A DNA stretch of 64,000 bases from Candidatus Omnitrophota bacterium (lineage in GTDB: Bacteria; Omnitrophota; Gorgyraeia; Gygaellales; Profunditerraquicolaceae): positions 132,766-196,765 of the forward strand of contig JBEKHW010000001.1 in assembly GCA_050012075.1 (NCBI GenBank), given 5' to 3'. Numbering within the stretch: the stretch's first letter is position 1; each line of letters opens with the position of its first letter. The notes beneath the pieces were generated by a model. The model did not search any database. It worked only from the letters and a program-made list of their open reading frames with translations, and had not been told where the DNA came from. Of this stretch, positions 1-57,697 are shown one piece after another. Position numbers and translations under genes: made by a program.

Positions 1-3000
1 ATTCTTTGGCGACTCTTTTTAAATCATATCTGTCTTTTTCTGCAAAAGAAGGGATTATTTTCATACCAGTATCGTCTAACCACAGCTTATCCTTATCTAA
101 CCTGTCTGTTAATACTATGTAGCCGAGCGAAGCTATTGTTTTTTCGTATAGTAACACGTATTGCTCTAACTCATTCACCGGATTACTCTTGCCTCTTCTA
201 AAACGCAGTAGCAAGACTACTAGGCTAGCTATACACATTGTTGGGCTGTGTAGAAGTTGATATATTAATCCTGAATCTGGCTTATTAGGTATTTTCTTTA
301 TTTTTTCATAAGTATCTAAAAGATCTTTTTTTGTTTCTGATTTATTTAATAACCAACGCATTGCCTGGGCCACTGCCATGTTGTCTTCTTTTGAGATTTC
401 TTTATTAATATCTCTTATAGTTAAGAGAATCACGTAGTTAATAAAGAAAACTTTTGTCGCAAACATCCTGGAAGTGAATTTCTTTAATTCTTCGCGCAAC
501 TCTGCCGTATCGCCACCCCTATAATGCCGCTCCAAAATCTCAATTGCTTCTTGCAGACAGACAATATTTATCGTATCGTATATCGTCTCTGCCTGCTTTT
601 GGCCGTACACCATTCGCTCATAGACTGCTTTTAAATTACCTAATACTATTGGTGGAGATTCCTCTTTCTTTATTCCAGAATATGCCCAGCGCGGCAATAA
701 TTCTTCCATGATGTACCTACCGGCTTCTTTAATCTCAAGATTATTTTTATTCAATGCTTCAATGCGCGATTTTATTATCCTGGCCAGCGACCGTTTTCGT
801 AGGTGATATGGCAAGACGACATAAGATAAAAATACTGATAAAACCACCACTGCTAATATCGTAAATTCAAGCAGCGAAATTTTACCGTCAGCTGCAAGGA
901 ACTTTTTTATCTGACTTAATCCGCTATCACTGCCAAGGATAAGCGCCAACAATGCAGGTCCGCTATAACAATATAATCCCCTGCCCCCACCCGCCTCTTC
1001 CGCCGGAGAGCTGCCGCGGCCGGTGCCATTTTTTGCCTGGTCTATCCTTTTCCATGCTTCCATGGTATTGCTCAACTCTTCATAAACCTCATCAGCAAAT
1101 CCATCGCGGTTGCCGACATCTTCTACGATAGGAATTATCTCTCCTAGTAATATGAATTCCTTTTCGGCAGAAAGCTGTTTTCCGGCCAAGCTAAATACCC
1201 TCTTTAATAACCCGGCTAATAAAAGTGCTTCGTTGGGTAGGAGGGGCTGCTTGGGGCAAATCGCCCAATAATCCTTTATCGCCTTAACGGCCTTGACTAA
1301 ATCCAAGTGGCGGTCCGACGCATAAACATTACAAAGCCTGTAATGCCCGCTTAGGAGGAATCTCCTGCTTTCGCCGCTAAAATGCACTTCCAGTTTTAGG
1401 CATTCGCCAAACAGTACATCTGCCTCAGACAGCATCTTTTCGGCAGAGTTGTAATCTTCGGCTTTAATCGCCTTATGTACCGCTTTTGTCTTATCGCTAT
1501 ATTGCATTACTTTTGTAATGGCTTCCATTAGCTGCCTCGGTTTCAAACGAAGCTCGATTGGGAAATACACTTCGATGCTTTTACGGACAAAAATATTCCG
1601 CCTTATCTGGAACGAAATCCAGTTAAGCATGTCTTGCCGGCTTCTCTGTACTTGGCGCCGTTCCGAGCTTTCTAAAAGAGAAAACAGGAACTTCACCAAG
1701 ATAACATCCGTGGTTTTAACATGTTCGTGGCTATACCATTTCAGGAATAAACTTAAGGACTCTATAAATAAGCCGGCGGCCTTCTTGAAATTGCCTTCTG
1801 ACGTAGCATTTGTTCCCAAACGCCTATAAGCCAATATCATGAAAGGTATCTCGCAAAGCACCTTTTCGTTAAACCTAGAACGCATCTGTTTATCTACGAT
1901 CTCCCTGGCTGTCTGCAGAAAAACAGCCGCTTCCTTGTATCTGCCTTGCTTCATCCTCTGATGCGCGAAGCGCGTACAAAATTCGCATTCCCACACCTCC
2001 TCGCACGGGCCTTTTCCTGCCGGTGAGCTGCCGCTTCCGCCCGTGGCGCTATCTTCAAGGGTGCCCACCTGGAGGAAGGCCCCAATGGAAATATTCTGGC
2101 CGCTATTCTTTATCAACGCTTTAGTGGAATCTACTAACTTAGATAGAGGCAGCTTCGGCTTGCCGTTTACGCCCATTACAAGGAGTATTTTTGCCAAAGG
2201 CCACTCTGCCTTATCTCCTATAGCGCTATCTATTATGTCAACCAGCTCCATACCTTTATACTTTAACCCTTTTTGCTGGATATCTTCATCGGATAAGACA
2301 GGCAATCGCAAAGCGTTTAATCCTTCCAGTATTGCCTGCCGCAACTGGCGCTCAACTTCCTGTTGTCCGTTTGCTGACGACAGTGTAGGTACTGGTTCAT
2401 CCGTGGGAATAACATCTGGAGGCCTGTAGTAATCGTCATCCCCAATCACGGGCACCTTTCTTAAAGGAATCTCTTTCTTTGACTCTGCCTTAACAGCTTT
2501 TACCGGATGTTTTCTTGTTCCTTTCTTCTCCCATTCTTTCCATTCCTGCCGCAGTTCTTTCAATCCCGCATACATTGATTTCAAAGAAGCCGCTTCTTTG
2601 TTCTTCTTTGCTTCAAGGATCATTATCGCTTCTTCTAATAGCCCTTCTGTAGTTACAAAATCCTGTTCGGACAGGGCCTGGGGTAATTCATCCCACAATT
2701 CTATTAACAGCTCCCAGAAATAGCAGGCCAGATCTATCCGCTGTTCTTCGACAATACTCATCTTTCTTGCCCTATTTTCAGCTGCGATGAGTCTGAATCT
2801 TTCTATCTGCGGCAACTGTTCATCCTGTTTTCTTGCGCCTGCCGCTTTTTTCGCAATAGCCGGAGAGCTGCCGCGCCTACCGCTTGAAAGCGATATTCCA
2901 TCGGGAAATAATTTATCTACATCGATGTCTAACGGCTCTTCCGGGACCATACAGATTTTACCTGCGCGTAAATCAAGCTCAGAAATCTCATTCGCTATCG

Positions 3001-6000
3001 CGATAACAATGTCGAGCCTTCTTGAAAAGAAATAGACCTTAGAAAGTATTCCGTAGGCCATCCGCGCATTATGCAAGATAAAGCCGGGATATTTCGGATA
3101 GTATCGCTTTAGCTCCTTAAGAGTGGTCTTGGCCCACTTTTCTGCTTCTGGCAAATCTCCTGATTGGATACATGCCTCTACAATCTTATGCAGCACGATG
3201 AAGCGGCCTCTCACGTCGCCTGATTCCCTGGATATCTTTTCTAATCTAATTAACTCATTTAACCTTTTGCCGGGATCAATGATTGCAAACGAATTCTTGA
3301 GCCCTTTTTTCACAAAAGGAGTAATGGGCCGCAACCTGGCAGGGCTGTTGCCTTTACTGTCCTCGCCCTGGCCGTAGCCAATATTGTTATTTGTTACGGC
3401 AACCGCGCTACCGGTGGCATCCCCATCGAGCCATTTTCGCCTTATGCTTTTATCAGGAAAGGTGCCTGTCAAAGAACCGGGTTTTTGCGCAATTAGCCTA
3501 TAGGCAGGATTCTTTAACTTATTTTCGAAAGCCAATTCCTGCGCCTCTATATCTCTCCTAAGCTGGGAGCTGATAGCGTCAATTTCCTGTTTGAGCGTTT
3601 TTGCATGCATACCGAAAGAATCGCTTAATTCATCTATGCTCGTACCCATCGCGTATTCAACAAATAGTTTCTGTTTGTAAGCAGGTAATTGCGCCAAGGC
3701 GCTGCGCGCCCTGGAGAATAATTCTAAATCGACGATAGCCCGTTCTGGTGCCTCTTTTTCTGTACTAAAGGTATCCAACCAAGTAGTTACTTTTCTATTT
3801 CCCTCATCTCCATAGCGCGCAGCGGATAAACTGACATTCTCTCGCGAGGCTAAGGAAGCGCGGCTTATAGCATAACCCTTAACCTTAGATCTTACTTTCT
3901 TAAAATATCCGAATTCATCCACTGTCCGCACCTTATATACAGATAAATATTTGCTAAGGATTACATAAAAAGCCAGATTGGCTTCATTAAATAAATCATT
4001 GACCCCTATGCCTTTCAAAGATAGATATTGCCCTTTATAATACCTTCCTTTAAATTCCGAACCCACGGAAAAGGCGGCATGGCCGGTAATATCATAGTGG
4101 GATTTGAGAAATACCTGAGAGGCATTAGTATTGCCTTTTTTAATCTCCCTGCATAAGCGTATTTCGGCAGCGCGGTCAGGCCTTAACTCGTTCTCTTTCA
4201 TATACATGACAAAACCCGGTTCCGACAGCTTGTTCAGCATAATTTTGTCGGTTTCTCCATCGCCGTTGGTAAAGGCCTTGGGATGAATAGCCTCAAGTAT
4301 CCCGTCATCGTAATAATAGCCTCCATTATTTGACGCAGCCAAGATAGGATGCGTATAATCAAGCGCTTCTCCTAAATAGAAATAATCATCCGACAATACG
4401 CCCAATTCTGAAAATATCTGCAGTATATTGTATCTATCAAGCAAATACATTGCCTTTAAAAATACCGTATTTGAATTATTGGAGGGATAGAGGTTTTGAT
4501 AAAGAGCTTCACTCTTTAGATACGGCTCATGCATAACTCTTGCAATAATCCTACGCGCTATCTCAAGCTGGACAAGGCGCGGATGTAAATCTATATCTTT
4601 TAGGCATGGTATAGCGGATAAAAATACTTCCCAAAGCATGGATTGTCTTAAGGGGATATTCTGCTTTTCTTCTTTTTCCAGGCGCATACCGGTAAACATA
4701 CGCAGAAAAGACTTTGCCTGAACAGAGAGCATTTTTCTTTTGCCTTGTAACTCTTCAAAATTATTAAAGGTTACGATGGAGCCGTTGGTATCTTTTAATA
4801 TTCCTGACCAGTACGCCTTATCGTCAATGGATAGTTCAAATCCCTGCTTGTCGTCCTTCAGGCTAAATGCTGTCTTTTGCCTAATTATCTCTTGTAGCTT
4901 TTTAAATCTCTGCTCTTCTTTTTTAGCCCTCTTGCGCCAGGAAGCTAAGGGCGTGCCTTCCTTAATCAATCTATCAACAAACACCTCATTAACATTGGGG
5001 CTATCCATACCATCTATGGCTACAAAAGAACACCATCTGCCTTCGTTTAATACTTCTCTTATATGTTCATCTACGGTATTTTTGGCAATTATGCTGTAGA
5101 CTAAAACCGGTTTAGTCTGGCCAAAACGGTGTTCTCTGTCTGAGGCGTGGTCCATTATCTCAGGCACCCAGTCTTCATCTACAAAGATAGTGATATTTCC
5201 TGCGCAGAAGTTCTTTGACTGGCCTCCGCTCTTTACAGTGGATGCGATTATAGGATGGTCAAAGTTAGGTTCCTGGAATAAAGAAACATCTCTATAATTG
5301 GCGCGCTGCCTGCCTCCTAAGACAGCCAAAGCACCGAGATGGCTATAACGCGCCTGTAGGGCTTTTACTACTTCTCTAAAATTAGAGAAGATGACTATCT
5401 TTTCCTTTCTCTGCAGATGATACTTTACCAGTTCATCCACCTTTTCATACTTGGCAGACGTACAAATTATACCTTCAGGCATATCTTCTACTAAACTCGC
5501 ATCTATGCAGGCTTCTCTACCCCTCATTATCTTGGTCAAGATAATCGCCTTGCTGGGTTTCTTGCCCTCTTTTGCATAGTTTTTGACCCATGATTTAAAA
5601 TCTCCCCAGACCCTGTCATAGACTTTTTTCTGCTCTCCTTTTAATTCCACCTCTACTACGATTTCCTTTTTGGGAGGGAGGTCGCATAAAACTTCCTCTT
5701 TGTAGCGGCGCAGCATAAACCGCCTTAATTCATTATTTAAATTTCTTAAATTTTCAAATGAGCCGGAGAATAACGCGGCAAAGGTTTCTCTTGATTTATA
5801 TCTTTCCGGATAAAGCCAGTTTAAAAGATTGTAAATCTTCATTGCGGAGCGTCCGATAAGAGGAGTAGCGGTAACTAAAATCTTATACTCGGCATCAAAC
5901 TTTCGCAAGGCCTGCATATGGAGAGTTTCGTTACGCATTTCATGTGCCTCATCTGCAATAATAAAGTCGAAATTAAACGACTTTAACCCCGCGACTATTG

Positions 6001-9000
6001 CGTTGTTTCTTAAGCCCTCATAGTGAACAATCACAAAGCGGCAATCTTTGGCTAGTTCAAGCTCCCTGGCTAATTTTTCATTATTTCCCGAGATAACCAC
6101 GGTTTTATTTTGCATCAAGACCTTGGTGAGGATTTCATCCTCCCAAATTTCCTTGGCGCCGTTAGGGCAGACGATTAAGATTTTTTGCGCTCCCCGGCCG
6201 CCATAGGCGTTTAAGGCAGCGGCTATAACCTGAATGGTCTTACCCATACCCGGCTCATCAGCCAGGATAACTCTTTTATTGTCAAGCATAAAAATTATAC
6301 CCGCTACCTCGTAGAGCCTTAAGATAATCTTATCCTTATCTAACCCTTTTATCCTATCTTTGTCTATGTCTTCCAATAGCCGCCGGTAGTATTCCAGTGT
6401 ATTGCCGTAAGCATTTCTGATAATCTCCGAGTTAAGCTGATCTTGCGCTTGCTCATTAAGCTTTTCTAAGAACCGATTATCCCTGACTAAATTCGGATAG
6501 GAAAGCCGGATTATCTCCTGGGTCAGTATGTCAAGCTGGTTTGGCCCGAAAACAACCGGCCATTCTATTTCTCTCATCCTGGTAAAAGATAATGACCGGG
6601 TTCTCTGAGGCATAGCTGCCTTCTTCTCTACATTTCCTCTATCAGCCAAGGCACAAATTGATTTTATGGTATGGGCCAGTTCAGGGCGGCTTAGCTGGTC
6701 GCCATAAAATGCAGAAAGCAAACCAAACGCCCTTTCGGGACGGCCGCAGACATTGGAAATCTTTTCTATCGTGCCGCTATCTACCAGGGAGTCAAGGAGA
6801 GCCTTTTTTGCATCCGTTCTTTTCGTTTGCCTTAAGGCCTTGATTTTTTCTTCAATATAATCCCTGATACCTAAACGAATTAGCCAGCCGTTAATCGTGT
6901 ATACGCTTTCCCCGAAGAATCCGGCTACTTCTTTCTGGGTCATCCTGCGCTCCAGGAACAGTTCTTCCATTTTTTCCTTCAAAAAGTTTGCCTTGTTAAT
7001 CTCAACGAGAGATTCTACAAGCTCTTTTTTTCTTATAAACCCATAGGATTTTAGCTTTTTCATTACCTCAATGAGTTTATATCCGCAAGACTCAAATATC
7101 TGCCGGATTTTCTCTTCAGGTAAGCTTTTCTGTTTCTCTTTCAGCGCCTGGCCTATTATATTCTTTAGCCCTAACTTACCAATCCAATAATCAATGAGAT
7201 AGTTTTGGACGCCAAAATATCCGGCTGTGAGTTCCGCATTGCACCAATCATCCAAATGTACCCTTTCCAGCTCTTTTTTAAAGCTATCCAGAAGCCCTAA
7301 AATACTGAAGATAGCGATGTAATCTAGCCATCTCTCTTGCCTTATTCCTATCCCTTCCATCATCCGTGGAATATTCCAGGCATTATCCTGGCAGAACTTG
7401 GCTAAACCGGAAGGAGAGGTATCTATATTCCTGGTACGCCCTATAAATTCTAATAACCCTGAAGCTATGTTTAATCTCTTGTATAACGCTATTATGGTAG
7501 GCATACTAACACCGAAAATTTTAGGAAGGCTCTTAAAGCTTAAACCTGCCTTTAGATACTCTTCCGGTATCTTGTCGCGGAATTCATCATAAAGCCCTAA
7601 GGAGGCAAATCTTTCCTCTATCATAGGAGAACTGCCTGCTATACCGGCATGGGAAATCTTCTTAAAAGATCTGGCGATATGCCAATTATTTGCTGTTAAA
7701 ATAGCTCTGGCTTTCTCGTTAGGCGGCATAAGTTCCTTTTTCCATTCCCCTACCATAGAAACAGGGATATTGAATTTATGGGCGATTAGATTGTGGTTGC
7801 CGGCCTGCTGACAGTAAACCTTGATAAACTGCCTCTTTAACAGATGTATTGCGCCTAATTCTTCTAATAATTCAATATAAGAGCCATATTCCTTAACTCC
7901 CCGGAGGCGAGCTAACTCTCCACAGGCTATTTCCATATTCCATTTGTGCGCGGTGAAAATGGCTCCTGTCGGTTTCTTCCTGGCTTTAAGACTCTCGGCT
8001 ATCTCCTTATCAATGCCTAAATAAATAAGCCAACGCCTCACCGCAGCCGTACTCACACCGAAAAATCCTGCTACTCTTCCCGGCATCATCCTTTTTTCTA
8101 AGAACAATTCCTTCAATTTGTTCTTTATAAGGAAGGCCTTATTGATGCTGATTAAGAATTCTACTGCCGAGTTTTCTTTTACATTACCGTATGGCTTGAG
8201 CTTAAGAGAAACTTCTCCAATCTTATAGCTGCACTCCTCGAATATCTCTGCGATCTTCTCCTCGCTCAATCCGGATTGCATCTTTTGGAACTCACTGTCC
8301 GCCTTATCTTTTATGCCTAATTCCCTCATTAACATATTGATGGTAGTGTCAGTCACGTTAAAATATTTCGCCATCTTGCCGACTACACAGTTGCAATCTG
8401 AATATACCCGGCTTAGCTCTTTTGTAAAAATATCAAGCATCCCTAACTGGTTAAATGCTTTCATATAGCCAATTGAGTCGCACGTAATGCATAGTTTCTG
8501 CAGAATCAATGGGATATTCCAGGAATTATGCTGACAGAACTTCTCTAAAGAACCGGAGGACTTAGATATTACTTTATGGCGATGCATGGCCTTTATGGCC
8601 TCCGGCTCTAATTGTAATCTTTGCAATAGACTCATTGAGATCCTTATATCTTGACCGAGAGCTTTTGCCAACTTAGTAATGCTATATCCTGCCCTTATGT
8701 ATAATTCCGTCACCTTCCTGCGGAATTCTCCGTAGAGTCCCCAGGAGGCAAAGGCTTCTTCCAAGACATTGCCCCTTCCGTATTTAAATGAAAGCTCTTT
8801 CAGTGACTTGCCAATGTTCCATTTGTTCTTTGCTAAGACACCTCTTGCCTCTTTATCTAGAGGCATAAACTTATCCTCCCATCCTTTTACCGTAGAGGCA
8901 GAGATATTGAATACTTTAGCGATTAGATTATGGTTGCAAAGCTGTTGGCAGTAAACCTTGATAAACTGTTTTTTCAAGATGTGCGCCGCGCCTAATTGTT

Positions 9001-12000
9001 CCAATAATGCAAGGCAAGAATCGTATTTCTCAATCCCATAAGCTTTAGCCAACTCTGCACAGGCCTTCTCTATATTCCATTTGTATGCGGCTAAAATGGC
9101 AAGGATTGCAGTGTCGGCGGAAGGAATCTCCGTCTTACCGCCTATCTTTGCAAGGTATGCCCGTAGATGCACAAAATAAGGTTCAATTTTTCCCTTTAAT
9201 ATTCCGTCTTGTCTACCAGAGAACCCAAAATATCTGGCTGTTTCCTCTAAACTGTATCCTGTGTTGATATATACGGATATAAGCTTTTCATAAGAGATAT
9301 CTTCATAACCGAATTCTATGGGTATATCTAAGGCGCACCTTGCCTGGATTTGTCTGGGTAATCTTGCAAGAACTGCTTCCTTGCCCCAATCTTCTTCTTC
9401 CAAAATTCTGCATAGCTCATCCCTGGTAGGCGGTTGCCCAAAAACCTTCAGGCGCTTATCCGCTAACCAATCGGAGATAGTTGATACGTAAGCATTAAAA
9501 AATAAAGCGGTCTTCCCGATATCCTGGCCGTTGGAAAAATAGACCTGTCTTAGCTTTTCAGCAATAATATCTATACAACCTAATGCCTCCAACCTTTCCA
9601 AGATTCCACCTACGGCATTCACATACGTTCCCAGCTCAATAAATATCTTCTTCGTATCCCAGTGGCAGACTTTATCGCAAAGGTCTTCTATTTCTTTCCG
9701 GGATGGCTGCGGGATTAAATCTGCTTTTAACTTACGCACTTCGCCCTCACTTATAGCAAAAAACTTAGCTATCTTTTCTATAGAGCCTTTGTACCTTTTA
9801 TTAATTTCTCTGAATTTATCTTCAAAAATATTTCTGTGGTCTACGTTTGGAGCCCGGACCGTGATAGTTCCTTCTGATTTTACCGGTGCTGCTACTTCCG
9901 TGGAACGAACTGAAGAGTCAGAAGTATTGAGGACGGCTTGTTTTTTAGGTAAAGGTATCTTGAATCTATAACAGGCTATACGCAACAGAGTATCGCCTCC
10001 TTCTTTTCGGGATTTTTTCAGGACCGAAGAAACATTATTAAGTTGTCCTCCGGGAAGGGTGGCACGCCTGGCCAGTTCTAGCCGGGCTGATTCTTCTGTA
10101 GGATATTCTTCTACTCTATTAGATTTGACAGGTTTAGCCCTGTGCAATATCTTAGGTAACGTCATCTTAAACTTGTAACGAGCTCTATATAATGTAGGAT
10201 CACCGCCTTTTTCACGGGGTTTTGCCAGAGCTGAAACAGTATTATTGAGTTCACCACCGGCAAGGGTGGCACGCCTGGCTAGTTCTAGCCGGACTGATTC
10301 TTCTGTGGGGTATCTATGAGGTTTAATACTGCGGGGTTTATTTGGTAACGCTATGCTCAACTTACGGCAAGCTTTGCATAGCGCATTATTACCCCCCTCC
10401 TTATGAGATCTTTGCAAAGCTGACGCAACATTGTTCAACTTTCCACCTGGAAGGTTGGCACGCCTGGTCAGTTCTTTCTGTGCTGATTCCACTGTGGGAT
10501 ATGCAGGCTTGTTCTGTACGCCGGCAGGGCTGCTGCCCTTTGAAGGCCTATCTAATCTTAACGCCTTTATCAACGCCTCGGCAGAATTCAATCGTAAAGA
10601 GATTGCTGCCTGGCTCGTAATGGGCGTTGCAAGAAGGTCAGCAAAATAATCCAGGCCGTCCTCATCTCCCATCATAAGCAGGGTCTCTGCAATACAACGG
10701 CAAATCTCCGCAGGCATACTACTTGGCTTATCTTTGCCTAATAATTTCTTGTAGTAATCAATGGTATTACCCAAACGTAATGCTTCGGCTGCCGGAAGGA
10801 ATTTCAAGGTAAGAAGTATCGCGCTGCCAAGTAATCCTGTCTGGCCTTCTATCTCTTCAAAATATTCCCTAAGCTGAGTTACCACATAACCATATTCTCC
10901 TATGTCCCTAAGCGAATGCGCGATATCTTGAAACAATAACGTATCCATATTAGTGTCATGTGGGGCGCGCATCGAATATTCGAACCGTTCTTTTAACTCG
11001 GAGACCGCTTCTCCTGCGGGCTCCAGGACAGCAATAGCCCTTAATAAAGCTATCCTGGCGCTTGCCCGTTCAAAAAGCTCTGCTGTAACACTTAGAGGGC
11101 AGGCAAAATGCGTAAGTGCTTCTTTTAACGCAGGCACTAATTCTTCCCTACGGAATTCTGCCGCTAAATCTGCGCTCTGGAGAATAAGTTGCGGATTGTC
11201 GGAACCCAAGAGCCACTGAAGCCACAATAGAGCCCACCCGTCATTGCAGCGCACCAAAGCCTTAGTTACAGCAGCTATCTTCTGTGCCATCCCCATGGCC
11301 CTTGTATCTTGTGAAAGAGGCGGGATATTACTGCATCTTTTGTATAATTGAACAAACCGCAAATCAATTATCTTCTTTTCCTGCTCATCAAACTTCTGTA
11401 AATAAGGAAAGCTGGTTGCCCAGGCTTTGCCGACAGTCACGGCTGTTTGCGGATCTATATGCATTAAAGCCTCTAACGCAATTGCTTGTGCCGCCGTAGA
11501 AATATTTGAAAAAGTGAATATTTTATCTATGTTAAACCTTGCTGCCTGATGGCTAAAATAACTAAGTATAAGTGTCAGCCGAGCAAAAGCAAGATCCTCC
11601 CAGTATTCTTCATGAGAGTTTAGTAAAGAGGAAAGCACCACCTCCATGGAGGCAACAATGTCTTTGGTAGCCGCTGCCTTGAAATGAATTATTGCCAAGG
11701 GTAAGCGGTAATCTTTAGCCAGTCTTATGCCGTAAGAACGGGATTCAGAAAGGAACTGTTGCAGTTCTTCGGGGTGTTCTTGATAATAAAGGAAACTTTT
11801 CTTGCGTGCTTTGCTGTTTGGCCCAGTACAGAGCTCTTCCAGTATGTAGCGGAAGAAATCATTGAGGATAGCGCAGGGCTTGTTGACCGTATTCCAGGCA
11901 ACCTGGATGATACCGGAAACTGCTTCTCCTGGACCGATTGCCCGGACTATAATCTCGCCTAAATAAGTTTGGCCAGCTGCCAGATGCGGAGAAAATGCGG

Positions 12001-15000
12001 TTTGTGAAACGAATTCAAAAACAAGCTCCTTTAATGGCGGAGAGTGTTCCTGGCCAGCAAGATATGCCCTGAATGCCTCTAAGTAAGAATGAACTCCTTC
12101 AGTCAACTGCTCTATTTCTACCTGAAGGAGTATATCTTTATCAGGCGTAAACTCTTCAGCGATTTCTTTACCCTTAAAGCTTAATTTTAATCTTACCGGC
12201 CCGTTACCGGGAATACCCTTTATCGGCTCTGTGCCGGGATAGGAATAAGTAGCGGGGCTGCTTCCGACCAGGACTAATTCACGCTGCTCCGCAGAGCATG
12301 CATCCATAAGTCTTTCTATTTCTTTCAAATCAGTATCATATGCCTGTCCGTATATCTCACTTAAAACATCTGATGCCTGTATAAATTTCCCTTTTAGTAT
12401 CAGAGAACGCGCATGGTCTATACCGAGCGCTACCGGATACCTTGCCTCGTTTCTATTTACGCTTTCGCCATTAGTGCGCCGATATATATCCTCCTCCGGC
12501 AACAAGTAAGGTTTACTGGTTATAATGGAAAGCGGAATCTCCATGTTAAGACGTTTTGAATAGAAAGCTACCAGGCGCCCTATCTTTTCATTCCTGCCTT
12601 TCTTATTTTTCAACATGTTCCTTTCAATCCGACGCAAGGCTGGATCGGAAACGCCGTATGCCGGGCCCGCCTCTTGCCTGGACCATCCGCAGCAGAGCCG
12701 CAGAAGCACAAGACACTCACCCGGAGTCCGACAGATATTCTTTAAACTATCGAGCAATCTCCGGCCTGTCCAGACCTGGCACATCTCGAACTTGCTTTTC
12801 TCCTTCTTAGGCAAAGATTTCATGATCTTCTTTACGCTGTGAGGAAACCTAAAAGCCCCGTGCTTATCTATGGTCCTGCCGCATTCAAGCAGTATGATCT
12901 CTATGCGCTTGTGCGTGTGTTTTAAATTATCCATAAGTTTTGGTTTTGAAGTTTTCTCCAGGTATTCTTCAACCGGTTTATTTAATATAATATCGCAGAG
13001 CCCGAACTTCGTCCCAAGCCGCCTGTTATAAATATTCACCAGGCGTTTCAATTGGCCAAGAATCTTACACAGCTTTCTTACACCCGTTTCATACTTGGAT
13101 AGAGCTGAAAATGATATACCAAGAAGATCTGCTGCCTGTTTCAAGCTTAGCCCACAGCAGAGCCGCAGGAGTTTCAGGCGTTCTCCGTAATCTTTACAGA
13201 TATCCCTTAAGCTGGGCAGAAGCTCTTTCCCGGTAAAAAGCTGGCATATCTGAAAGTCAACACCACATCTCTTCTTTAGAAAATTAGCAATTTCCCTGAT
13301 TTCCGAAGGAATAATTTTACCAACCTTTTTATTCCTATGACGATAGAAGATTATCTGGCCCAGCCTCCCTTTCTGTGCCAATTTCAGTAAGCTTAAACAC
13401 CCTGATTCGCTTATGATAATTTCAATCCTTTGCCAAATTAGCTTGAGATTATCTTCCAATTTTAATTCCGATGTTTCTTCAAGGAATTCTGTCAATGATT
13501 TTCCTGTCCTGATATGGCTAACATCTAACTTTAATTTCAAAACCTTATTGGTAAAGTTAATAAATTCTCTTTGGAGCTTACGGCCGAAATTACGCTCGCC
13601 TCTTATAACTGCAGCCAGATGCCTGGTATTTATATGGTTACCGATTGAAGCTATGGAATAACTCTTAGCTTCCATCAAGGAACAGAGATACCCGATGCGC
13701 TCATTTGGTTTCTCCAGCTCTTTTAGTTTGGCAAAAATCTCGTTTGTTCCGTTCGCCGGAGAGCTACCGGTTTCACCCACGCTGCTATCCAGAAGGGCTC
13801 CCTCTTGGGGAACGACTTTCGATAAAGCAAGATTGTACCGGCTTAACGCAGTTACGACCTCTTTAAGGCTATTCTCTCCGAAACCTTCAACCCTTGAAAA
13901 ATCTTCTATTCTTTTGGCGCAAAGCTCTGCAATGGTCTTAATATTAAGTATTTCAAACGCTTTTATTACCCGTTTGCTGAAATATGCAAGTTTATATACC
14001 GGCTCCTCTTCTAACCTGTCAATATCTATGCCCTGGCTTAAATATTTCCTGTAATAAGCGATCTTCCCAAGAACTATCTTCTCTATCTGGCGCACCCGTT
14101 CGCGCGTTATCCGAAGCTGCTCTTTAAGCTCCTCAAGGGTTGCGGCATTTGTCCCTGGCTTGACCACAATCCTGGACAATAGTATTGTCTTCTCTCTATG
14201 GTCAAAGGAAAGCGCCGGACAATCAAGCATTCCCTGCACATCCCAGGTATTAGCTGCAGCCTGCTCTCGCATGACAACCTTGTATTGTGTCCGAATGCGA
14301 GGCTTCTTTGCGGGCTTTATTAATTCGACAACCGGTTCCTTGACGGTACGCTTCTGTGCAGCCTTTTCTTGCTGAGGAGCTTTTTTCAAGGCAGATTCTA
14401 TAATCTTAAGCATAGTGGCAAGATATGGCCCTAAGATTTCGAGAGTTATCATGTCGTTGTAGAATTTTCTATTCAGGGCATCATACAAACCGCGGTCATC
14501 ATTTTCATCAGGCAGCTTATAATTTTTATCCAAACCGAGCGCTGCTAAGGCGCCATGAAGCCTTGAATTCCATTCTTCATGCTCTGCTGCGATAATCTCT
14601 AACATCTTCTTTCTTCTCTTTATACTATCCGTAGCCAAGATGTGCCTGACATAATCTATCCTTTGGTATAGCTTATCCAGTTGCCTGTACACCTTTGAAT
14701 CATGCGTTATCTCGCCTGTGCCGCCGCAGGCCGGAGAGGATGCTTGGTGTGAAGAAAAGACGGGTATCCTTAGGCTTATCTTTCTTAAATTCGTATTGAT
14801 ATCAAAGATGGTGATGACGAATTCATTGCCTGTCTTGACGTTGTAGACGATTAAATTAAACTCCGAGATACTTCCGAATACCTTCAAGCGATAATCCCCT
14901 TTTGCCTGCTGGAACTTCTCGGCTTCAGCGCGCAAAGCGGATTCTTTCCACTTGCCGTCTCTATTCAAAAACTTATTATCTTTCTTCATCCACTCTGTCT

Positions 15001-18000
15001 GCAAATGAGACATAATACCGGAAGAACAGGATACAATGAATTCGGCTGCTGGAGCGCTTTTCTCTTCTGCGCCTCCTAAAACGACATGAGCTACCTCAAG
15101 CATGATCTCTGCTTCAGGCGCATCAGGATCAAACCCGCGAAGATGAATATTCTGGCCTTCTCCTATTTCATGTGTTTCCTGTTTAATACTTCTTTGTTTT
15201 ATGGCAGCTTCCTGCGCTTTTTCCCCAAGGAAAGAACAGAGCATTTTTAATATTTCCGTGCCTTGGGATTCCGAGGATCTCTTCCTTTCTTTTAGCAGAA
15301 CCTCAAGATCTCCCTGGCGTTTTATCAGGAACTTGAATTTACCTTCAGCAGTCAAGAGATCAATGGCTTCTTTAACCTTCCAGGCATATTCCCAAGACAG
15401 GTCGCCCTCTGCGACTTTATCCGTCAGCCAGATAAGGATATATTTTGCTGCTGTGGCAGTGAGTTTACGAGCCGCCGGAGAGCTGCCGGAGGAAATCAAG
15501 TGGATACCTGTCGGCACAGGAAGCATCTTTTCTCTAAGCACAGCCAAGACTTTAGCCGGCACTATGCGGCGCATCTGCTTAGCGTAGCGTTCCGAGAGGG
15601 TCTCTACGTCCTGGATCTCATGATTAGCTGCGAGCTTCGATAGCTCCCCTTCAAGAATAAAGTTAGCCTTGAGATAGGCCTCTTCATATTCCGTAAGCTC
15701 TGCTGGTCCGGAAAGTAAAGTCTTAAGCCGAAACCAGGTTGCAACAGACATATTTATCTCCGGAGACGTGGGGTCAGCAAGAACTGAATTCAGGCAACGG
15801 TATTGGTTCGTATCAATATGCTCCAGCATAGAGAAATGCGTTATACCGCGTAAGATGATGATAATAGAGCCGGGCATATCAGCCGCTAATTGCCCTATTT
15901 GCCCGCGCACCCCTTCATCGCGCAGCTTAACCATATTGGCTCCCGGCTCAATGTTTTCTTTCAGCAACTTAAGATAGGATTTCCTGTTACCGAAGTTCCA
16001 ATCAAGCCACGCTTCATGAGATCTAACCGACCATTCCAATGTTGAAACAAAGGTATCGAATGATAGTAGCTCGGAAACAGCGTGAATGTTCCTGTGACGG
16101 TGAAGCATTTCCTGTAATCCATACATATAACCCATTACCACATCCAGTTTTTCAGGGTTCCCCACTTTAAAATCACCTAAGAGATTTCTTTTGCTAAACT
16201 TATCGAGGATGCCTTCACACAACTGGCCATAGATTACCTTTAATTCCTCACGCTTACCGGAGTCTAACCAGCTTTTTACTTTATCGTAGCCCTCCATAAG
16301 AGGTAAGCCATAAACACCCAGCCCATTTTCGACAATGACCGTTACAGGCCGTTCCTGAACATTTGCTATTTCTACAATACGCTCAAATGCAGGAGAAAGA
16401 CAAGCAAATGAATTGCGATAAGCATGAAAATCAAATATCCCTATAATATCCGTTAGCTTCCGTGTCGGCGAAGCAGGGTTTGTGAAGAATTTTTCTATAG
16501 CAGCAGGCAGAATCTTTAAGATCTCTGCCCGGCTATGGACGGATGAGTTTGTAGGAGATGAACCTTTTTCCGACTTTTCTGCAAAGATATTCCAATCCTG
16601 CATATCTTTCTTCAACATCCTTGCTACCTGCATAATCTCATGGGGTAATTCCATAGAATCTACCAAACTAAGGTTATAGCCGTTTTCATATCCATACTTA
16701 CTAGCCTCGGCACATCTTATTATCCGTATAGATTTCTGGCCTTCAGGAAAGGCATCAATAATATATTCGTCTTCAGTGACCACCCAGAATAGTATGAATT
16801 GCTGTCCAGCTATCTTAATGATTTTAAAGAAGATATTTGATTGCTTTGGCTGCCTGTCCAAGCGCCTTTTTACTTCAAAAGCATGGGCCTCGCAGCAGGT
16901 ATTTAAATGCGCGTCGCACAATTCCGCTTTATGCGCCCTGATAAAATATACCGCCTTCTGCGCTATATCCTCGTATAATCCTTGAGCCGGAGAGCTACCG
17001 TATTGTTCATAATTGACCCGTAAATTAGGGATATTATTGAACCTCTCTTTATCTATCCCGGAAATGATGCGTTGCCTGAACCAATCCAGAAGCGGAGACT
17101 TAACATGGGCCAAGGGTTCTTTTTGCCCTTGTATGAATAGAAGCAGAACTTCCTGCGGCAAGGCCTCGCCAAAATCCTTGAAATCTTCCTGAAGGTAGCC
17201 GCGTACAAAAGCAGAAATTGCCTGCGGCACCTTATAACCCAAAATCTTGGGGATGGCATAGCGCAAGTCACAAATCATCTCAGCCAAGAATTGATCCCTG
17301 GTTAATCCGTCAAACTCAATGTTCTTTGAGGACCCCAGGTCAAAGATTACCGGCGGCATATCCAGGAACTGGTCTGCATTAAACCAGGAGTGCGTAAAGC
17401 CGGCATTATGCATCAGGCGCAACAAGCGCCCTCCTGTGCAAATAGCCGAAATAAATTCCTCTTTCGGAAGGAGATCGCATAAACCAAGGCTACGCCATTC
17501 CTGCAGGCTGTTACAGCCATATAACGTAAAGCCCAAAACCTCACGCTGGCCTTCATAGTAGGCCTCCCCTGGAAAATCATAGTAGAACCCGGGGAAAAAT
17601 CCTATCCCAAGCGGATAGCGTACCGATACGCGGTGTTGACAGAAATACTTTGAATGCCAGATATCGCAAGAAATAATAAAATCGCGGATGGATTCACTTA
17701 ACAGGCAGCCACCTTGCGGAGAAGTATGGTCTGGGATAATGCTTATCAACCCTTGAGCGTCTTTAGCAAATTTATAGTCTGTCCAACCGCTGCCCATATG
17801 CGGCAGCAAGGGCTTGCGCGTATCAAAAACAACTCCTTTAGCATAGAATTTAGTGATTGTAAAATCTTTATCATTCCGGGAAACGGAGATCGGGTATTTA
17901 AGCTCTGTCCATGTCGTGCGTAGGTTCTTAACACTGGGCTGATTGGTAGAAATCAAATTCAGCAAGGACGCGTAATCTTCCGCATCAATAAACGGAAGTA

Positions 18001-45232: not shown

Positions 45233-45560
45233 TAGAGCGATTATAAAACCGTACTCATCTTTACCTTCCACAAAAGCCTTTGTCCCGTCAATAGGGTCAA
45301 TCACCCAGACGTATTCCGCCTCTCTTTTTGGCTCAATCCCTTCCAATTCCTCCTCTGCTATAATTCCATGCTCGGGGAATTCTTTTCTAATCAACCTGAT
45401 TGCCATCCGCTGAATTTCCTGATCGGCTTCGGTGACTATGCTGTAATCTACTTTTGCTCCCAACGACCTCTCTCCTAAAGACGATTTCTTATAATCACTC
45501 ATTATAATCTTTGCTTTTTGGGCTATTGTTCTGGCGATCTCGGCTGCCGCAGCCACAGAG
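44930..45560 (-). other. Inositol monophosphatase / FBPase (IMPase)-family unit, disrupted by the 45241-45360 shifted block
   Basis: 'SIVTEADQEIQRMAIRLIRKEFPEHG' in frame 1. 'IAEEELEG...EYVWVIDPIDGTKAFVEGKDEYGF' readable only in frame 0 (45241-45360). 'ALMRNGMPILALLYAPEW' again in frame 1. Confidence 0.55.
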
Positions 45561-57541: not shown

Positions 57542-57697
57542 AATTCCATTTCTCTTGCTTACTTCCAGGCCCCTTACTGCCTTTGTTGCTATCTTTAAGG
57601 ACTCCGCGGTTATCGCTCCCTGCAAATATTCAGCCAGTTCTTTTTTAACAGTATCAACAATCTGCTGGAGAGCTTCCTGCCCGGGCACTGCTGCCGG

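What the first reader, a model, noticed from the sequence alone, without database searches (positions are those of the whole stretch)
3545..14160. Transcription-machinery-like modules concentrated in the C-terminal 14 kb
Four sigma-70 region-4 / ECF-sigma4-like HTHs (3545-3720, 12600-12760, 13085-13200, 14045-14160), an RNAP alpha-CTD-like HhH module (13865-13980), a RapA/HepA-like SNF2 ATPase (5000-6560) and about 2.5 copies of a ~370-aa HTH-rich module (6600-9330) all lie in the same frame. RapA, alpha-CTD and sigma-4 are all RNA polymerase-contacting elements. This suggests a segment that engages RNA polymerase or DNA.
Basis: partly seen in the sequence, partly recalled or inferred. Interest (0 to 1): 0.7.

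Follow-up and report, generated by a model that had tools for sequence, protein, structure and literature searches.

The report
DNA-binding Snf2/sigma modules in giant ORF
The flagged stretch is a run of DNA-binding and transcription-factor-like modules, centred on a Snf2 motor with 11 helix-turn-helix (HTH) repeat units in front and a sigma-like tail behind, all inside one uninterrupted reading frame of more than 64 kb that a short peptide motif divides into protein-sized units.

Summary
The whole 64-kb window is one stop-free frame on the minus strand (at least 21,333 codons, open at both ends).

**What holds up**
- A sigma-70 region 4 with an intact -35 recognition helix.
- An RNAP alpha-CTD-like domain next to it.
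- A catalytically intact Snf2 ATPase.
- A repeated HTH-rich block.
- A sigma-like module after the Snf2.

**Corrections**
- Two of the four "sigma-4" HTHs are XRE-type. A third XRE copy was missed.
- The Snf2 is not RapA-like.
- The "370-aa module" is 11 units of about 90 aa (6839-9844).
- The ECF-sigma-like module scores below the curated cut-off.
- "C-terminal" cannot be verified.

**New context**
- A peptide motif, [GA]SSPA, occurs 39 times and cuts the ORF into protein-sized modules.
- The block array-Snf2-sigma-like lies between two motif sites. A metagenomic relative (35% identity over about 1,900 aa) encodes the same block as a separate 2,279-aa gene with a signal peptide, bracketed by its own motif variant.
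- The order array then Snf2 recurs in at least six other large proteins.

**Best reading**
A DNA-anchored Snf2 translocase, possibly tethered to RNA polymerase by its sigma-like tail. DNA binding is well supported by homology. RNAP contact is only inferred. Taxonomy is unresolved, and the architecture resembles the giant "multi-enzyme" ORFs of Omnitrophota.

The parts
2..64000 (-). Single open reading frame, at least 21,333 codons, with no stop codon. It is open at both window ends.
   Evidence: 0 stops in this frame against 599-1,625 in the other five. Pfam tiles it with about 25 unrelated families.
13769..14728 (-). Module M1 (seg 92-411), bounded by [GA]SSPA sites at 14729-14743 and 13754-13768. 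The N-terminal 170 aa or so are unassigned, followed by sigma-4 and alpha-CTD.
14057..14215 (-). Sigma-70 region 4 (4.1/4.2) HTH. Its recognition helix TRERVRQIE is the same as in E. coli sigma70 583-591 except I587V.
   Evidence: PF04545 above GA. PDB alignments to RpoD/SigA region 4. NCBIfam RpoD/RpoH/RpoS C-terminal matches.
13817..13981 (-). RNAP alpha C-terminal-domain-like helix-hairpin-helix domain.
   Evidence: PF03118 at 30.5 bits against GA 23.8. Aligns to T. thermophilus and B. subtilis alpha-CTD. The R265, G296 and S299 equivalents are kept; N268->K, C269->A, K298->N.
12266..13753 (-). Module M2 (seg 417-912): three paralogous XRE-type HTH units, at 13589-13702, 13067-13189 and 12602-12736.
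   Evidence: HTH_31 at 45.9 bits (2 stretches) and HTH_3 at 39.1 bits. Internal repeat at 35.5% identity, E 1e-24. The sequence was read.
10538..12250 (-). Module M3 (seg 918-1488): helical, with no assignable family (only a weak HEAT_2 hit).
   Evidence: Bounded by motif sites at 12251-12265 and 10523-10537.
2873..10522 (-). Module M4 (seg 1494-4043, about 2,550 aa): 63-aa repeats, HTH array, Snf2, a conserved post-Snf2 region and a sigma-like domain. It lies between two strong motif sites. One weak site (GSSPM, 7622-7636) falls inside a repeat unit.
   Evidence: Seg 1968-3825 is collinear at 35% identity over about 1,900 aa with P0094, which is part of the stand-alone gene at L004 9905-16741.
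9941..10501 (-). Three tandem copies of a repeat of about 63-66 aa (YPTEES..ELARRA.LPGG.LNN), function unknown.
   Evidence: Self-BLAST at 52-60% identity, E from 1e-15 to 1e-31. Sequence. No Pfam hit.
6839..9844 (-). Array of 11 units of about 90 aa. By sequence reading, each unit has a W-N 'UBA-like' part followed by an HTH.
5012..6661 (-). Snf2-family ATPase with a conserved N-terminal extension. Motifs present: LADEPGMGKT, DEAH, TATPL, SGGQSKNF and DREHRFGQ.
   Evidence: PF00176 at 148.7 bits. ISWI and CHD1L structures at 1e-40. pilus_reg_Snf2 at 149.8 bits and DpdE at 173.6 bits, with RapA at only 31.7. 50% identical to P0010, 47% to P0094 over the aligned Snf2-to-sigma-like stretch (A3) and 30% to P0001.
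4085..5011 (-). Post-Snf2 region, strongly conserved with P0094 (IPLRQSMLW, LDYTHPI, DRAAEIRLCREI), function unknown.
   Evidence: No Pfam hit. AF2 confidence was low.
3557..4027 (-). Divergent sigma-70-family (ECF-like) module. The sigma-2-like part includes DLFNEA. The sigma-4-like HTH is LPAYKQKLFVEYAMGTSIDELSDSFGMHAKTLKQEI.
   Evidence: TIGR02937 at 30.4 bits, E 2.6e-7, profile positions 21-162 of 165, cut-off 42.9. The P0094 homologue scores 40.0 bits. Only the sigma-4 helices were confidently modelled.
1016..2857 (-). Modules M5 (2033-2857, unassigned) and M6 (1016-2017, TPR-like). M6 is a paralogue of the motif-delimited module at window 34529-35332.
809..865 (-). First transmembrane-like segment after about 11,000 aa without one (FTILAVVVLSVFLSYVVLP).
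   Evidence: Hydropathy scan.

Best explanation
The region is not one 'transcription segment'. It is a run of protein-sized modules inside a giant stop-free ORF, and the modules are separated by the peptide motif [GA]SSPA.

Three of the modules are built from DNA-binding parts:
- M1 is a stand-alone sigma-70 region 4 fused to an alpha-CTD-like helix-hairpin-helix domain.
- M2 is a triple XRE-type HTH protein.
- M4 is a unit of about 2,550 aa. It has 11 units of about 90 aa at the front, each read as a W-N 'UBA-like' part followed by an HTH, then a catalytically intact Snf2 ATPase, then a divergent ECF-like sigma-2/sigma-4 domain.

M4 is an evolutionarily conserved unit.

Most likely mechanism (inferred):
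1. The HTH array holds the protein on duplex DNA.
2. The Snf2 motor uses ATP to translocate on DNA or to remodel protein-DNA complexes.
3. The sigma-like tail either docks the motor on core RNA polymerase, as sigma-2 and sigma-4 do on the beta-prime clamp helices and the beta flap, or adds promoter-like DNA recognition.

That makes M4 a functional analogue of RNAP-associated Snf2 factors without being a RapA homologue. M1 and M2 are probably accessory DNA-binding or decoy proteins. The [GA]SSPA sites are most simply read as processing or linker sites that let the modules act as separate proteins.

Shown here: domain identities, repeat structure, conservation of the M4 unit, and motif placement. 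Inferred: DNA translocation, RNAP docking and proteolytic processing.
For: - One stop-free frame.
- Domains above Pfam GA: Sigma70_r4, RNA_pol_A_CTD, HTH_3/HTH_31 and SNF2-rel_dom.
- The -35 recognition helix is retained.
- Snf2 motifs are intact and both lobes align to ISWI/CHD1L.
- TIGR02937 spans sigma-2 to sigma-4 here and in the homologue (E 2.6e-7 and 2.9e-10).
- The sigma-like region is 41% identical to P0094 over A5, including invariant DLF.EA and KVR..V.GY..SR.
- Unit conservation: seg 1968-3825 is collinear with P0094 at 35% identity over about 1,900 aa.
- The order array then Snf2 is also found in P0009, P0092, P0097, P0100 and P0139.
- Snf2 followed by Sigma70_r2 plus r4 (both above GA) forms the C-terminus of giant protein P0001.
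- Motif evidence: SSPA occurs 32 times against about 0.3 expected. Codons at the motif are synonymous-variable, so it is selected at the peptide level.
- None of the 39 sites falls inside a Pfam domain. Sites sit 10-19 aa before the starts of the Rpe, HAD and IMPase Pfam matches, and they bracket a 318-aa Fmt module.
- In the relative, the homologous unit is a separate gene whose only two K[ST]SS[SA]G sites lie at aa 50 and 2258.
Against: - There are no experimental data of any kind.
- The sigma-like domain is below the curated cut-off. It could not be confirmed by structure (AF2 pLDDT 44) or by profile-profile comparison with the P0001 sigma (probability 2%).
- The alpha-CTD keeps only half of the 265 determinant.
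- The homologue carries a Sec-type signal peptide. That is hard to reconcile with an ATP-dependent role on the producer's own chromosome.
- The membrane topology of this stretch is ambiguous.
- Cleavage at the motif is unproven.
- The ends of the ORF and the organism are unknown.
Confidence: 0.55

Rival explanations
1. Exported effector. The array-Snf2-sigma unit, and perhaps M1 and M2, is exported and delivered into a host or prey cell, where it binds foreign DNA and disrupts or hijacks the victim's transcription. The biochemistry is the same as in the best explanation; the target is different.
For: - The closest homologue is a separate gene that starts with a typical Sec signal peptide (MKKRIFKTISCVLILAICINSIQGSVHA). 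Its neighbours carry near-identical signal peptides.
- Most array-bearing large proteins begin with signal-peptide-like N-termini.
- Giant Omnitrophota ORFs are linked in the literature to predatory or episymbiotic lifestyles, and 94% carry a signal peptide or TM helices (papers 10.1101/2023.11.21.568195, 10.64898/2026.06.07.730766 and PMC10066038).
- An ATPase is of no use in the periplasm, so an exported Snf2 implies a cytoplasmic destination elsewhere.
Against: - No signal peptide can be seen for the window's own copy, which is embedded in about 11,000 aa without TM segments.
- The positive-inside rule around the preceding TM hairpin suggests a cytoplasmic location.
- No delivery system was seen.
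- The organism and its lifestyle are unknown.
- The signal-peptide call rests on inspection only.
Confidence: 0.2
2. Mosaic accretion without a common function. The giant ORF has accumulated gene fragments, including pieces of rpoD (region 4) and rpoA (CTD) and a mobile Snf2 cassette. On this view the clustering of 'transcription' parts is an accident of cargo capture.
For: - The rest of the ORF is a patchwork of unrelated enzymes: Rpe, RNase-J-like MBL/beta-CASP, HAD, PfkB, RpiB x2, CPBP protease, IMPase, Fmt, HATPase and GlnD.
- Modules are shuffled between relatives.
- The same Snf2 subfamily is fused to radical-SAM/SPASM in P0010 and to methyltransferase or DUF488 in others.
- Sigma-4 and alpha-CTD occur as isolated fragments.
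Against: - 64 kb without a stop requires purifying selection on the frame.
- The array-Snf2-sigma-like order is conserved at 35-47% identity across lineages.
- Snf2 followed by sigma recurs independently in P0001.
- Catalytic and DNA-recognition residues are intact.
Confidence: 0.13
3. Anti-phage defence helicase. The Snf2 with its HTH and sigma accessories is a defence module of the DpdE/ZorD/DrmD type that senses or attacks invading DNA.
For: The best PADLOC matches are DpdE (173.6 bits), ZorD (140.1) and DrmD (90.2). There is also a weak match of the first sigma-4 to the MZA-system sigma MzaA.
Against: - All NCBIfam equivalog cut-offs are missed by a wide margin (67 against 1,500 for ZorD, 37 against 500 for DpdE, 20 against 610 for DrmD).
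- Matches cover only the generic Snf2 core.
- No partner genes (ZorABC, DpdA-K, DrmABC) can exist in a window that is one ORF.
- There is no nuclease domain.
- Eukaryotic ISWI scores as well as the defence models do.
Confidence: 0.07
4. RapA/HepA-type RNAP recycling factor.
For: It is a Snf2 ATPase in a bacterial context, close to sigma-like and alpha-like domains. The RapA model gives a weak hit at E 4.7e-8.
Against: - RapA scores 31.7 bits against a cut-off of 576, covering the N-lobe only (profile 169-344 of 959).
- Other Snf2 models score 4-5 times higher.
- No RapA chain is among the 60 best PDB hits.
- The N-terminal side carries the HTH array, and no match to RapA's N-terminal part was found. 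RapA is regulated through its NTD (PMC8501970 abstract).
Confidence: 0.03

Closest known systems
Giant 'multi-enzyme' ORFs of Omnitrophota (West-Roberts et al. 2023 preprint; Nielsen & Lui 2026 preprint, class 1)
   Same: - An ORF of more than 20,000 codons, tiled with many unrelated Pfam families with no single family dominating.
- Clusters of TM helices.
- Sugar-metabolism, kinase, HAD and HATPase content.
- Internal divergent repeats without nucleotide tandem repeats.
   Different: - Taxonomic placement is not established here. Scans of GTDB representatives found no close relative.
- Neither paper mentions sigma, Snf2, HTH or transcription-related content. The 2026 text contains none of 'sigma', 'Snf2', 'helicase', 'transcription' or 'HTH', and the 2023 text mentions only SecA 'helicase'.
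- Neither reports a punctuation motif. The 2023 paper states that cleavage points are unknown.
Snf2-family ATPases with accessory DNA-binding domains (ISWI HAND-SANT-SLIDE, CHD1 SANT-SLIDE)
   Same: The ATPase core is most similar to ISWI/CHD1L among solved structures (1e-40). It is coupled to Myb/SANT/HTH-like three-helix DNA-binding modules.
   Different: - It is bacterial.
- The helical modules lie N-terminal to the ATPase rather than C-terminal, and there are 11 repeat units.
- There is no nucleosome substrate.
- It has an extra sigma-like C-terminal domain.
- No sequence homology was shown between the array and SANT-SLIDE.
RapA/HepA (bacterial RNAP-associated Snf2)
   Same: Possible functional analogy: a Snf2 motor that may be tethered to RNA polymerase.
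   Different: It is not a member. The RapA model is far below cut-off, no match to the RapA N-terminal part was found, and tethering here would be through a sigma-like domain (inferred).
ECF (group 4) sigma factors
   Same: Two-domain sigma-2/sigma-4 layout. There are DLxxE(A) region-2.2-like and LP....F....G.S..E....G....T.K region-4-like motifs. The TIGR02937 alignment spans both domains.
   Different: - It is below the curated threshold.
- It is embedded at the end of a 2,550-aa Snf2 protein rather than being a free protein of about 190 aa.
- No anti-sigma partner is visible.
- The -35 and -10 recognition residues are not conserved enough to judge.
Viral and eukaryotic polyproteins, and bacterial multi-module precursors
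   Same: Protein-sized functional units are strung in one frame and separated by a short recurring peptide motif. In a relative, the units are separate genes.
   Different: - No cognate protease has been identified.
- Cleavage is unproven.
- The motif differs between lineages: GSSPA, KSSSAG and RSELR.
- The scale, more than 21,000 aa, has no precedent among polyproteins.

Membership tests
Sigma-70 family, region 4 (PF04545) | Profile match above the gathering threshold. | tested here: met
   27.5 bits against GA 24.1 for module M1 alone, and 42.9 bits in the 5,000-aa scan.
Sigma-70 family, region 4 (PF04545) | -35 recognition-helix residues (E. coli R584, E585, R586, R588, Q589). | tested here: met
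   The HMMER alignment to E. coli RpoD region 4 shows TRERVRQIE against TRERIRQIE. Residue numbering is from my knowledge of E. coli sigma70.
Complete sigma factor (for the 14057-14215 element) | A sigma-2 domain (core binding, -10 recognition) in the same protein. | tested here: not met
   No Sigma70_r2 or r3 hit in M1 at E<=5. NCBIfam matches cover only the C-terminal 50 or so residues of the RpoD, RpoH and RpoS models.
RNAP alpha subunit C-terminal domain (PF03118) | Profile match above the gathering threshold. | tested here: met
   30.5 bits against GA 23.8. Aligns to alpha-CTD structures 1doq, 1z3e and 3gfk.
RNAP alpha subunit C-terminal domain (PF03118) | 265 DNA-binding determinant (R265, N268, C269, G296, K298, S299) and linkage to alpha-NTD. 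| tested here: not met
   Only the R265, G296 and S299 equivalents are kept (alignment; determinant list from my knowledge). No alpha-NTD is present in the module.
ECF / sigma-70 superfamily (TIGR02937) | Score at or above the curated cut-off of 42.9 bits, spanning sigma-2 and sigma-4. | tested here: inconclusive
   The match spans profile positions 21-162 of 165 but scores 30.4 bits standalone (E 2.6e-7). The homologue P0094 scores 40.0 bits. AF2 was uninformative for sigma-2.
Snf2 family ATPase (PF00176 + PF00271) | Both RecA-like lobes with helicase motifs I, II (DExH), III, V and VI. | tested here: met
   SNF2-rel_dom scores 148.7 bits. Helicase_C scores 21.5 bits, just under GA 23.5, but both lobes align to ISWI (query 94-516). 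Motifs GMGKT, DEAH, TATP, SGGQS and HRFGQ are present.
RapA/HepA subfamily (NF003426) | Equivalog score of at least 576 bits, with the RapA N-terminal domain. | tested here: not met
   31.7 bits, covering only profile positions 169-344 of 959. Absent from the 60 best PDB hits. An HTH array lies on the N-terminal side, and no match to the RapA N-terminal part was found.
Defence Snf2 helicases (ZorD, DpdE, DrmD) | Equivalog-level score and the presence of system partner genes. | tested here: not met
   ZorD 67.3 against 1,500, DpdE 36.7 against 500, DrmD 20.2 against 610. The window is a single ORF, so no partner genes are present.
XRE-type HTH (PF01381 / PF13560) | Profile match above the gathering threshold. 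| tested here: met
   HTH_31 scores 45.9 bits against GA 27, with two stretches. HTH_3 scores 39.1 against GA 23.
Omnitrophota giant multi-enzyme ORF class | ORF of at least 10,000 aa with many distinct Pfam families and TM helices. | tested here: met
   At least 21,333 aa, about 25 families and about 25 TM-like segments.
Omnitrophota giant multi-enzyme ORF class | The genome is classified in phylum Omnitrophota. | not testable with these tools
   The window has no marker genes, rRNA or tRNA. No close relative was found in GTDB representatives, JGI metagenomes or IMG/VR.

The most novel reading that the evidence does not exclude
Bacteria of this kind encode true punctuated polyproteins. Dozens of gene-equivalent modules are translated as one chain of more than 21,000 aa and released at lineage-specific peptide sites: [GA]SSPA here, K[ST]SS[SA]G in the closest relative, and R[SPA]E[LVMA]R in a third group.

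One released product is an exported Snf2 remodeller, anchored by an HTH array and carrying a sigma-like tail. It enters a host or prey cell and acts on that cell's DNA and RNA polymerase complexes.
Probability: 0.15. Interest if true: 0.9.

Novelty: new variant of a known kind. Interest (0 to 1): 0.65.

Why it matters
Giant bacterial ORFs are known, but their content is mostly unannotated. It is also an open question whether they act as one chain or are cut into pieces. The 2023 preprint that described them says explicitly that cleavage points are unknown.

This window bears on that in two ways.
- A conserved module of about 2,500 aa (HTH array, Snf2 and sigma-like domain) shows that giant ORFs can carry nucleic-acid machinery as well as adhesins and carbohydrate enzymes. 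I found no description of a Snf2 motor fused to a sigma-like domain in the literature that could be searched.
- The recurring peptide motif, and the fact that one motif-delimited module is a free-standing gene in a relative, give concrete candidate processing sites. These make the 'one protein or many' question directly testable by proteomics.

Tried and rejected
- **Whole-protein self-BLAST** returned only the identity hit. Searching in chunks recovered the repeats.
- **Close relatives of the window** were not found in GTDB representative genomes (2 scans), JGI metagenome contigs (2 scans) or IMG/VR. Only generic Snf2 hits at 26-27% identity turned up. The source organism stays unknown.
- **The word-indexed protein search with the HTH array** found nothing. 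The exhaustive HMMER profile search was needed.
- **AF2 of the post-Snf2 plus sigma-like region** with a two-sequence alignment gave pLDDT 44, so no fold search was run on it.
- **hhalign of the sigma-like profile against the P0001 sigma domain** aligned only the sigma-4 HTH, at 2% probability.
- **phmmer of the sigma-like region against the PDB** gave only E of about 1 to SigW.
- **Foldseek of the array model against the PDB** gave nothing at E<1. The afdb50 library was unavailable.
- **Rfam and tRNA scans** of the window were empty.
- **A DNA-level explanation of the motif** (repeat, recombination site) was rejected because its codons vary synonymously.
- **Internal translation starts after the motif** were rejected because no Met follows the motif consistently.
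- **Membrane topology** from the positive-inside rule was contradictory.
- **The literature search** found no prior description of Snf2-sigma fusions or of punctuated bacterial polyproteins.

Full report
**Coordinates.** The features all lie on the minus strand. Residue numbers labelled 'seg' refer to the translation of window:2-15001:-. Residue i starts at window position 15001-3(i-1). 'Giant' numbers count from window position 64000.

**1. The observation**

The other five frames have 599-1,625 stops. So the finding lies in a giant ORF. 'C-terminal 14 kb' means only the low-coordinate end of what we can see.

Pfam and NCBIfam scans gave the following.

| Window coordinates | What it is | Score |
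|---|---|---|
| 14057-14215 | Sigma70_r4 | 27.5 bits vs GA 24.1 (module alone) |
| 13817-13981 | RNA_pol_A_CTD | 30.5 bits vs GA 23.8 |
| 13067-13189 | HTH_3/HTH_31, XRE type (not sigma-4) | 39-46 bits |
| 12602-12736 | Paralogue of the XRE HTH above | repeat 35.5% identical, E 1e-24 |
| 5120-6301 | SNF2-rel_dom plus Helicase_C | 148.7 bits |
| 3557-4027 | Sigma-70/ECF-like, TIGR02937, profile 21-162 of 165 | 30.4 bits standalone, E 2.6e-7, cut-off 42.9 |

- The repeat of about 370 aa is real. Copies are 35-43% identical, with E from 1e-47 to 1e-77.
- No HTH, sigma or Snf2 family appears in the other 49 kb at E<=0.01.

The corrections are that two 'sigma-4' elements are XRE HTHs and that the Snf2 subfamily call is wrong.

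**2.

- **Sigma-4.** The first sigma-4 aligns to E. coli, C. difficile and Thermus RpoD/SigA region 4. Its recognition helix TRERVRQIE is identical to E. coli T583-E591 apart from I587V. All the -35-contacting residues are retained. The basic patch that follows, used by activators, is not.
- **Alpha-CTD.** It aligns to B. subtilis and T. thermophilus alpha-CTD. It keeps the equivalents of R265, G296 and S299 but has K, A and N at the positions of N268, C269 and K298. It is a helix-hairpin-helix domain with a partly eroded UP-element determinant.
- **Snf2 motifs.** The Snf2 has GMGKT, DEAH, TATP, SGGQS and HRFGQ, so it should hydrolyse ATP.
- **Snf2 subfamily.** Its best models are pilus_reg_Snf2 (149.8 bits), SCO1167 (128.5), PADLOC DpdE (173.6) and ZorD (140.1). 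All are far below equivalog cut-offs. ISWI and CHD1L lead among solved structures at 1e-40. RapA reaches only 31.7 bits, on the N-lobe, and is absent from the top 60 PDB hits. It is a generic prokaryotic Snf2, not RapA/HepA.

**3. The HTH-rich block**

- Iterative HMM search resolves it into 11 units of about 90 aa, seg 1720-2721, window 6839-9844. Four units make up the super-repeat of about 380 aa.
- By sequence reading, each unit starts with a short part containing a conserved Trp-Asn (weak UBA_4/TAP_C hits). It ends with an HTH of the form G.S...A..FGVS..TV..W...LGI (HTH_28 at GA; HTH_8 above GA in relatives).
- AF2 on two units, using a nine-row alignment of the window's own copies and those of P0009, gave pLDDT 87 and pTM 0.79. 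The model is all helical.
- Foldseek finds no whole-model match.

'HTH-rich' is supported. DNA binding is a reasonable but unproven inference.

**4. Relatives**

Word-indexed searches found little. An exhaustive profile search with the two-unit alignment found 2,355 proteins at E<=1e-3 and 21 at E<=1e-30.

- Among the best hits, the array is followed by a Snf2 ATPase in P0009, P0092, P0094, P0097, P0100 and P0139.
- The domain after the Snf2 varies between them. It is Methyltransf_11 in P0009, P0097 and P0139, and DUF488 in P0092.
- In P0094 and in the window it is the ECF-like module.
- P0094 is 35% identical to seg 1968-3825 over about 1,900 aa. It is 47% identical over the aligned stretch from just before the Snf2 core to the sigma-like end (A3).
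- The sigma-like part of P0094 scores 40.0 bits on TIGR02937. It shares invariant DLF.EA, KVR..V.GY..SR and LP...LF...A.G...EL.D.FG...KT.K with the window.
- A more distant giant protein, P0001 (5,515 aa, ending next to convergent mutL and mutS), has the same Snf2 subfamily (30% identity). Sigma70_r2 and Sigma70_r4, both above GA, follow it at the very C-terminus.

So 'Snf2 followed by a sigma-like domain' occurs in three lineages, and 'HTH array followed by Snf2' in at least seven proteins.

**5. Context: a punctuated giant ORF**

The rest of the ORF carries these families:
- ribulose-phosphate epimerase
- an RNase-J-like MBL/beta-CASP/RMMBL block
- HAD
- PfkB
- aldose epimerase
- two RpiB copies
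- a CPBP/Rce1-like membrane protease
- inositol monophosphatase
- formyltransferase (N and C domains)
- HATPase_c
- GlnD nucleotidyltransferase
- DUF6923

While reading homologue P0009 I noticed the pentapeptide RSELR recurring 11 times. A k-mer count of the window's protein then showed an analogous motif.

- SSPA occurs 32 times against about 0.3 expected. [GAS]SSP[ATSVLM] occurs 39 times, usually preceded by K, R or Q.
- The codons at the motif vary synonymously, including both AGY and TCN serine codons. It is therefore conserved as a peptide, not as a DNA repeat.
- Median spacing is 421 aa.
- No site falls inside a Pfam domain.
- Sites sit 10-19 aa before the starts of the Rpe, HAD and IMPase Pfam matches. 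They bracket a 318-aa formyltransferase module, a 252-aa HAD module and a 305-aa IMPase module.

Within the finding, the sites delimit these modules.

| Module | Seg residues | Content |
|---|---|---|
| M1 | 92-411 | sigma-4 plus alpha-CTD |
| M2 | 417-912 | three XRE HTHs |
| M3 | 918-1488 | unassigned |
| M4 | 1494-4043 | 63-aa repeats, array, Snf2, sigma-like |
| M5 | 4049-4323 | unassigned |
| M6 | 4329-4662 | TPR-like; paralogue of another motif-bounded module at 34529-35332 |

The contig of P0094 (L004, JGI 3300009105) supports this reading.

- There the M4 homologue is a separate 2,279-aa gene. It starts with MKKRIFKTISCVLILAICINSIQGSVHA and ends in RIDQAA*.
- Its only two copies of that lineage's motif, K[ST]SS[SA]G, lie at residues 50 and 2258. 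Together they bracket the whole array-Snf2-sigma unit.
- Its neighbours carry 1-8 copies of the motif and near-identical signal peptides.
- In P0009, the homologous array-Snf2-methyltransferase unit lies between RSELR sites at 2691 and 5061.

The motif therefore marks gene-equivalent boundaries in three lineages. The two preprints on giant Omnitrophota genes do not describe any of this. One of them states that cleavage points are unknown.

**6. Interpretation**

The best-supported reading is a cluster of modules, each with its own DNA-binding parts, and M4 is the conserved core.

- M4 is a DNA-anchored Snf2 translocase. Its sigma-like tail could dock it on core RNAP or add promoter-like recognition.
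- That would make it functionally analogous to RapA without being homologous to it.
- DNA binding and ATPase competence rest on homology and intact motifs.
- RNAP docking and processing at the motif are inferences.

The signal peptide on the free-standing homologue, and on most array-bearing proteins, raises a more novel possibility: these are exported effectors that act on another cell's DNA. In the window itself, the modules sit in about 11,000 residues without a TM-like segment, and the local topology is ambiguous.

The remaining rivals fared as follows:
- Accidental accretion is weakened by the conserved domain order.
- A defence helicase is not supported, because the thresholds are missed and the partner genes are absent.
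- RapA membership is not supported, because the curated threshold is missed.

**7. Limits**

- Taxonomy is unresolved. The window has no marker genes, rRNA or tRNA, and all collection scans failed to find a close relative.
- Bacterial origin is inferred from the relatives' neighbours. These are mutS/mutL, AsmA/YhdP, and NrfD plus cytochromes.
- The sigma-2 fold could not be confirmed.

**8. Verdict**

The conserved HTH-array-Snf2-sigma-like unit and the punctuation motif are the parts worth following up.

Noticed in passing
window 2-64000, minus strand: The entire 64-kb window is one stop-free reading frame (at least 21,333 codons), open at both ends. GC skew is negative in all but one 2-kb window and AT skew in most, on the plus strand throughout.
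   Followed up: yes
39 sites across the window, for example 14729-14743, 13754-13768, 12251-12265, 10523-10537, 2858-2872, 2018-2032 and 1001-1015: A recurrent peptide motif, [KRQ]-[GA]-S-S-P-A. SSPA occurs 32 times against about 0.3 expected. It is conserved at the peptide level, since its codons vary synonymously. It is never inside a Pfam domain, and its median spacing is 421 aa. It brackets enzyme-sized modules (Fmt 318 aa, HAD 252 aa, IMPase 305 aa). These are candidate processing or linker sites of a polyprotein. Neither giant-gene preprint that I read describes it.
   Followed up: partly
P0009, P0102, P0122, P0145 (Logan assemblies); L004 1915-26741: Other large multi-module proteins carry analogous, lineage-specific punctuation motifs. 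R[SPA]E[LVMA]R occurs 7-14 times in proteins of 5,400-6,200 aa. K[ST]SS[SA]G occurs in the genes of L004. In each case the array-Snf2 unit lies between two consecutive motif sites.
   Followed up: partly
L004 1915-1995, 9905-9990, 16874-16960, 22086-22170, and the gene ends at 9798 and 16741: Four consecutive large genes share near-identical N-terminal signal peptides (MK[KR][RQL]IFK[ST][IV]S...INS), each followed by a (A/C/T)LR[PG] motif. Two of them end in the same C-terminal peptide, RIDQAA. Many array proteins end in -SA, -AA, -EA or -KA. This suggests a shared export or sorting signal.
   Followed up: no
window 15002-64000, minus strand: Upstream modules of the same ORF: Ribul_P_3_epim, MBL/beta-CASP/RMMBL (RNase-J-like), HAD, PfkB kinase, aldose 1-epimerase, two RpiB copies, a CPBP/Rce1-like intramembrane protease, inositol monophosphatase, formyltransferase N and C domains, HATPase_c, GlnD nucleotidyltransferase and DUF6923. 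A CPBP/Rce1-like domain is also present in giant protein P0001.
   Followed up: partly
window 34529-35332 and 1136-1987: Two TPR-like modules about 11,000 residues apart are paralogues (29-33% identity, E 1e-20 to 1e-24). Each is bounded by [GA]SSPA sites. This points to module duplication within the ORF.
   Followed up: no
window 22229-23272 and 18839-19723: Two further internal tandem repeat blocks. One has a period of about 108 aa and the signature (I)AVEAVKNNLPGIS, which occurs about 7 times (up to 75% identity between copies). The other has a period of 40-80 aa and overlaps the DUF6923 hit.
   Followed up: no
window 9941-10501: Three tandem copies of a unit of about 63-66 aa (YPTEES.R.ELARRA.LPGG.LNN...GG), directly after the motif site that opens module M4. 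There was no family match.
   Followed up: no
L003 10001-12883 (P0010): The closest Snf2 by identity (50%) is fused N-terminally to radical-SAM/SPASM domains and loses similarity after the first RecA lobe. It sits in a run of radical-SAM and glycosyltransferase genes. The same Snf2 subfamily is therefore recombined with unrelated partners.
   Followed up: no
window giant residues 600-10030 (about 33900-62200) versus 900-33900: TM-like segments cluster in the upstream half of the window. Then there are none for about 11,000 residues until 809-865. The positive-inside rule gives contradictory topologies for this long soluble stretch.
   Followed up: partly
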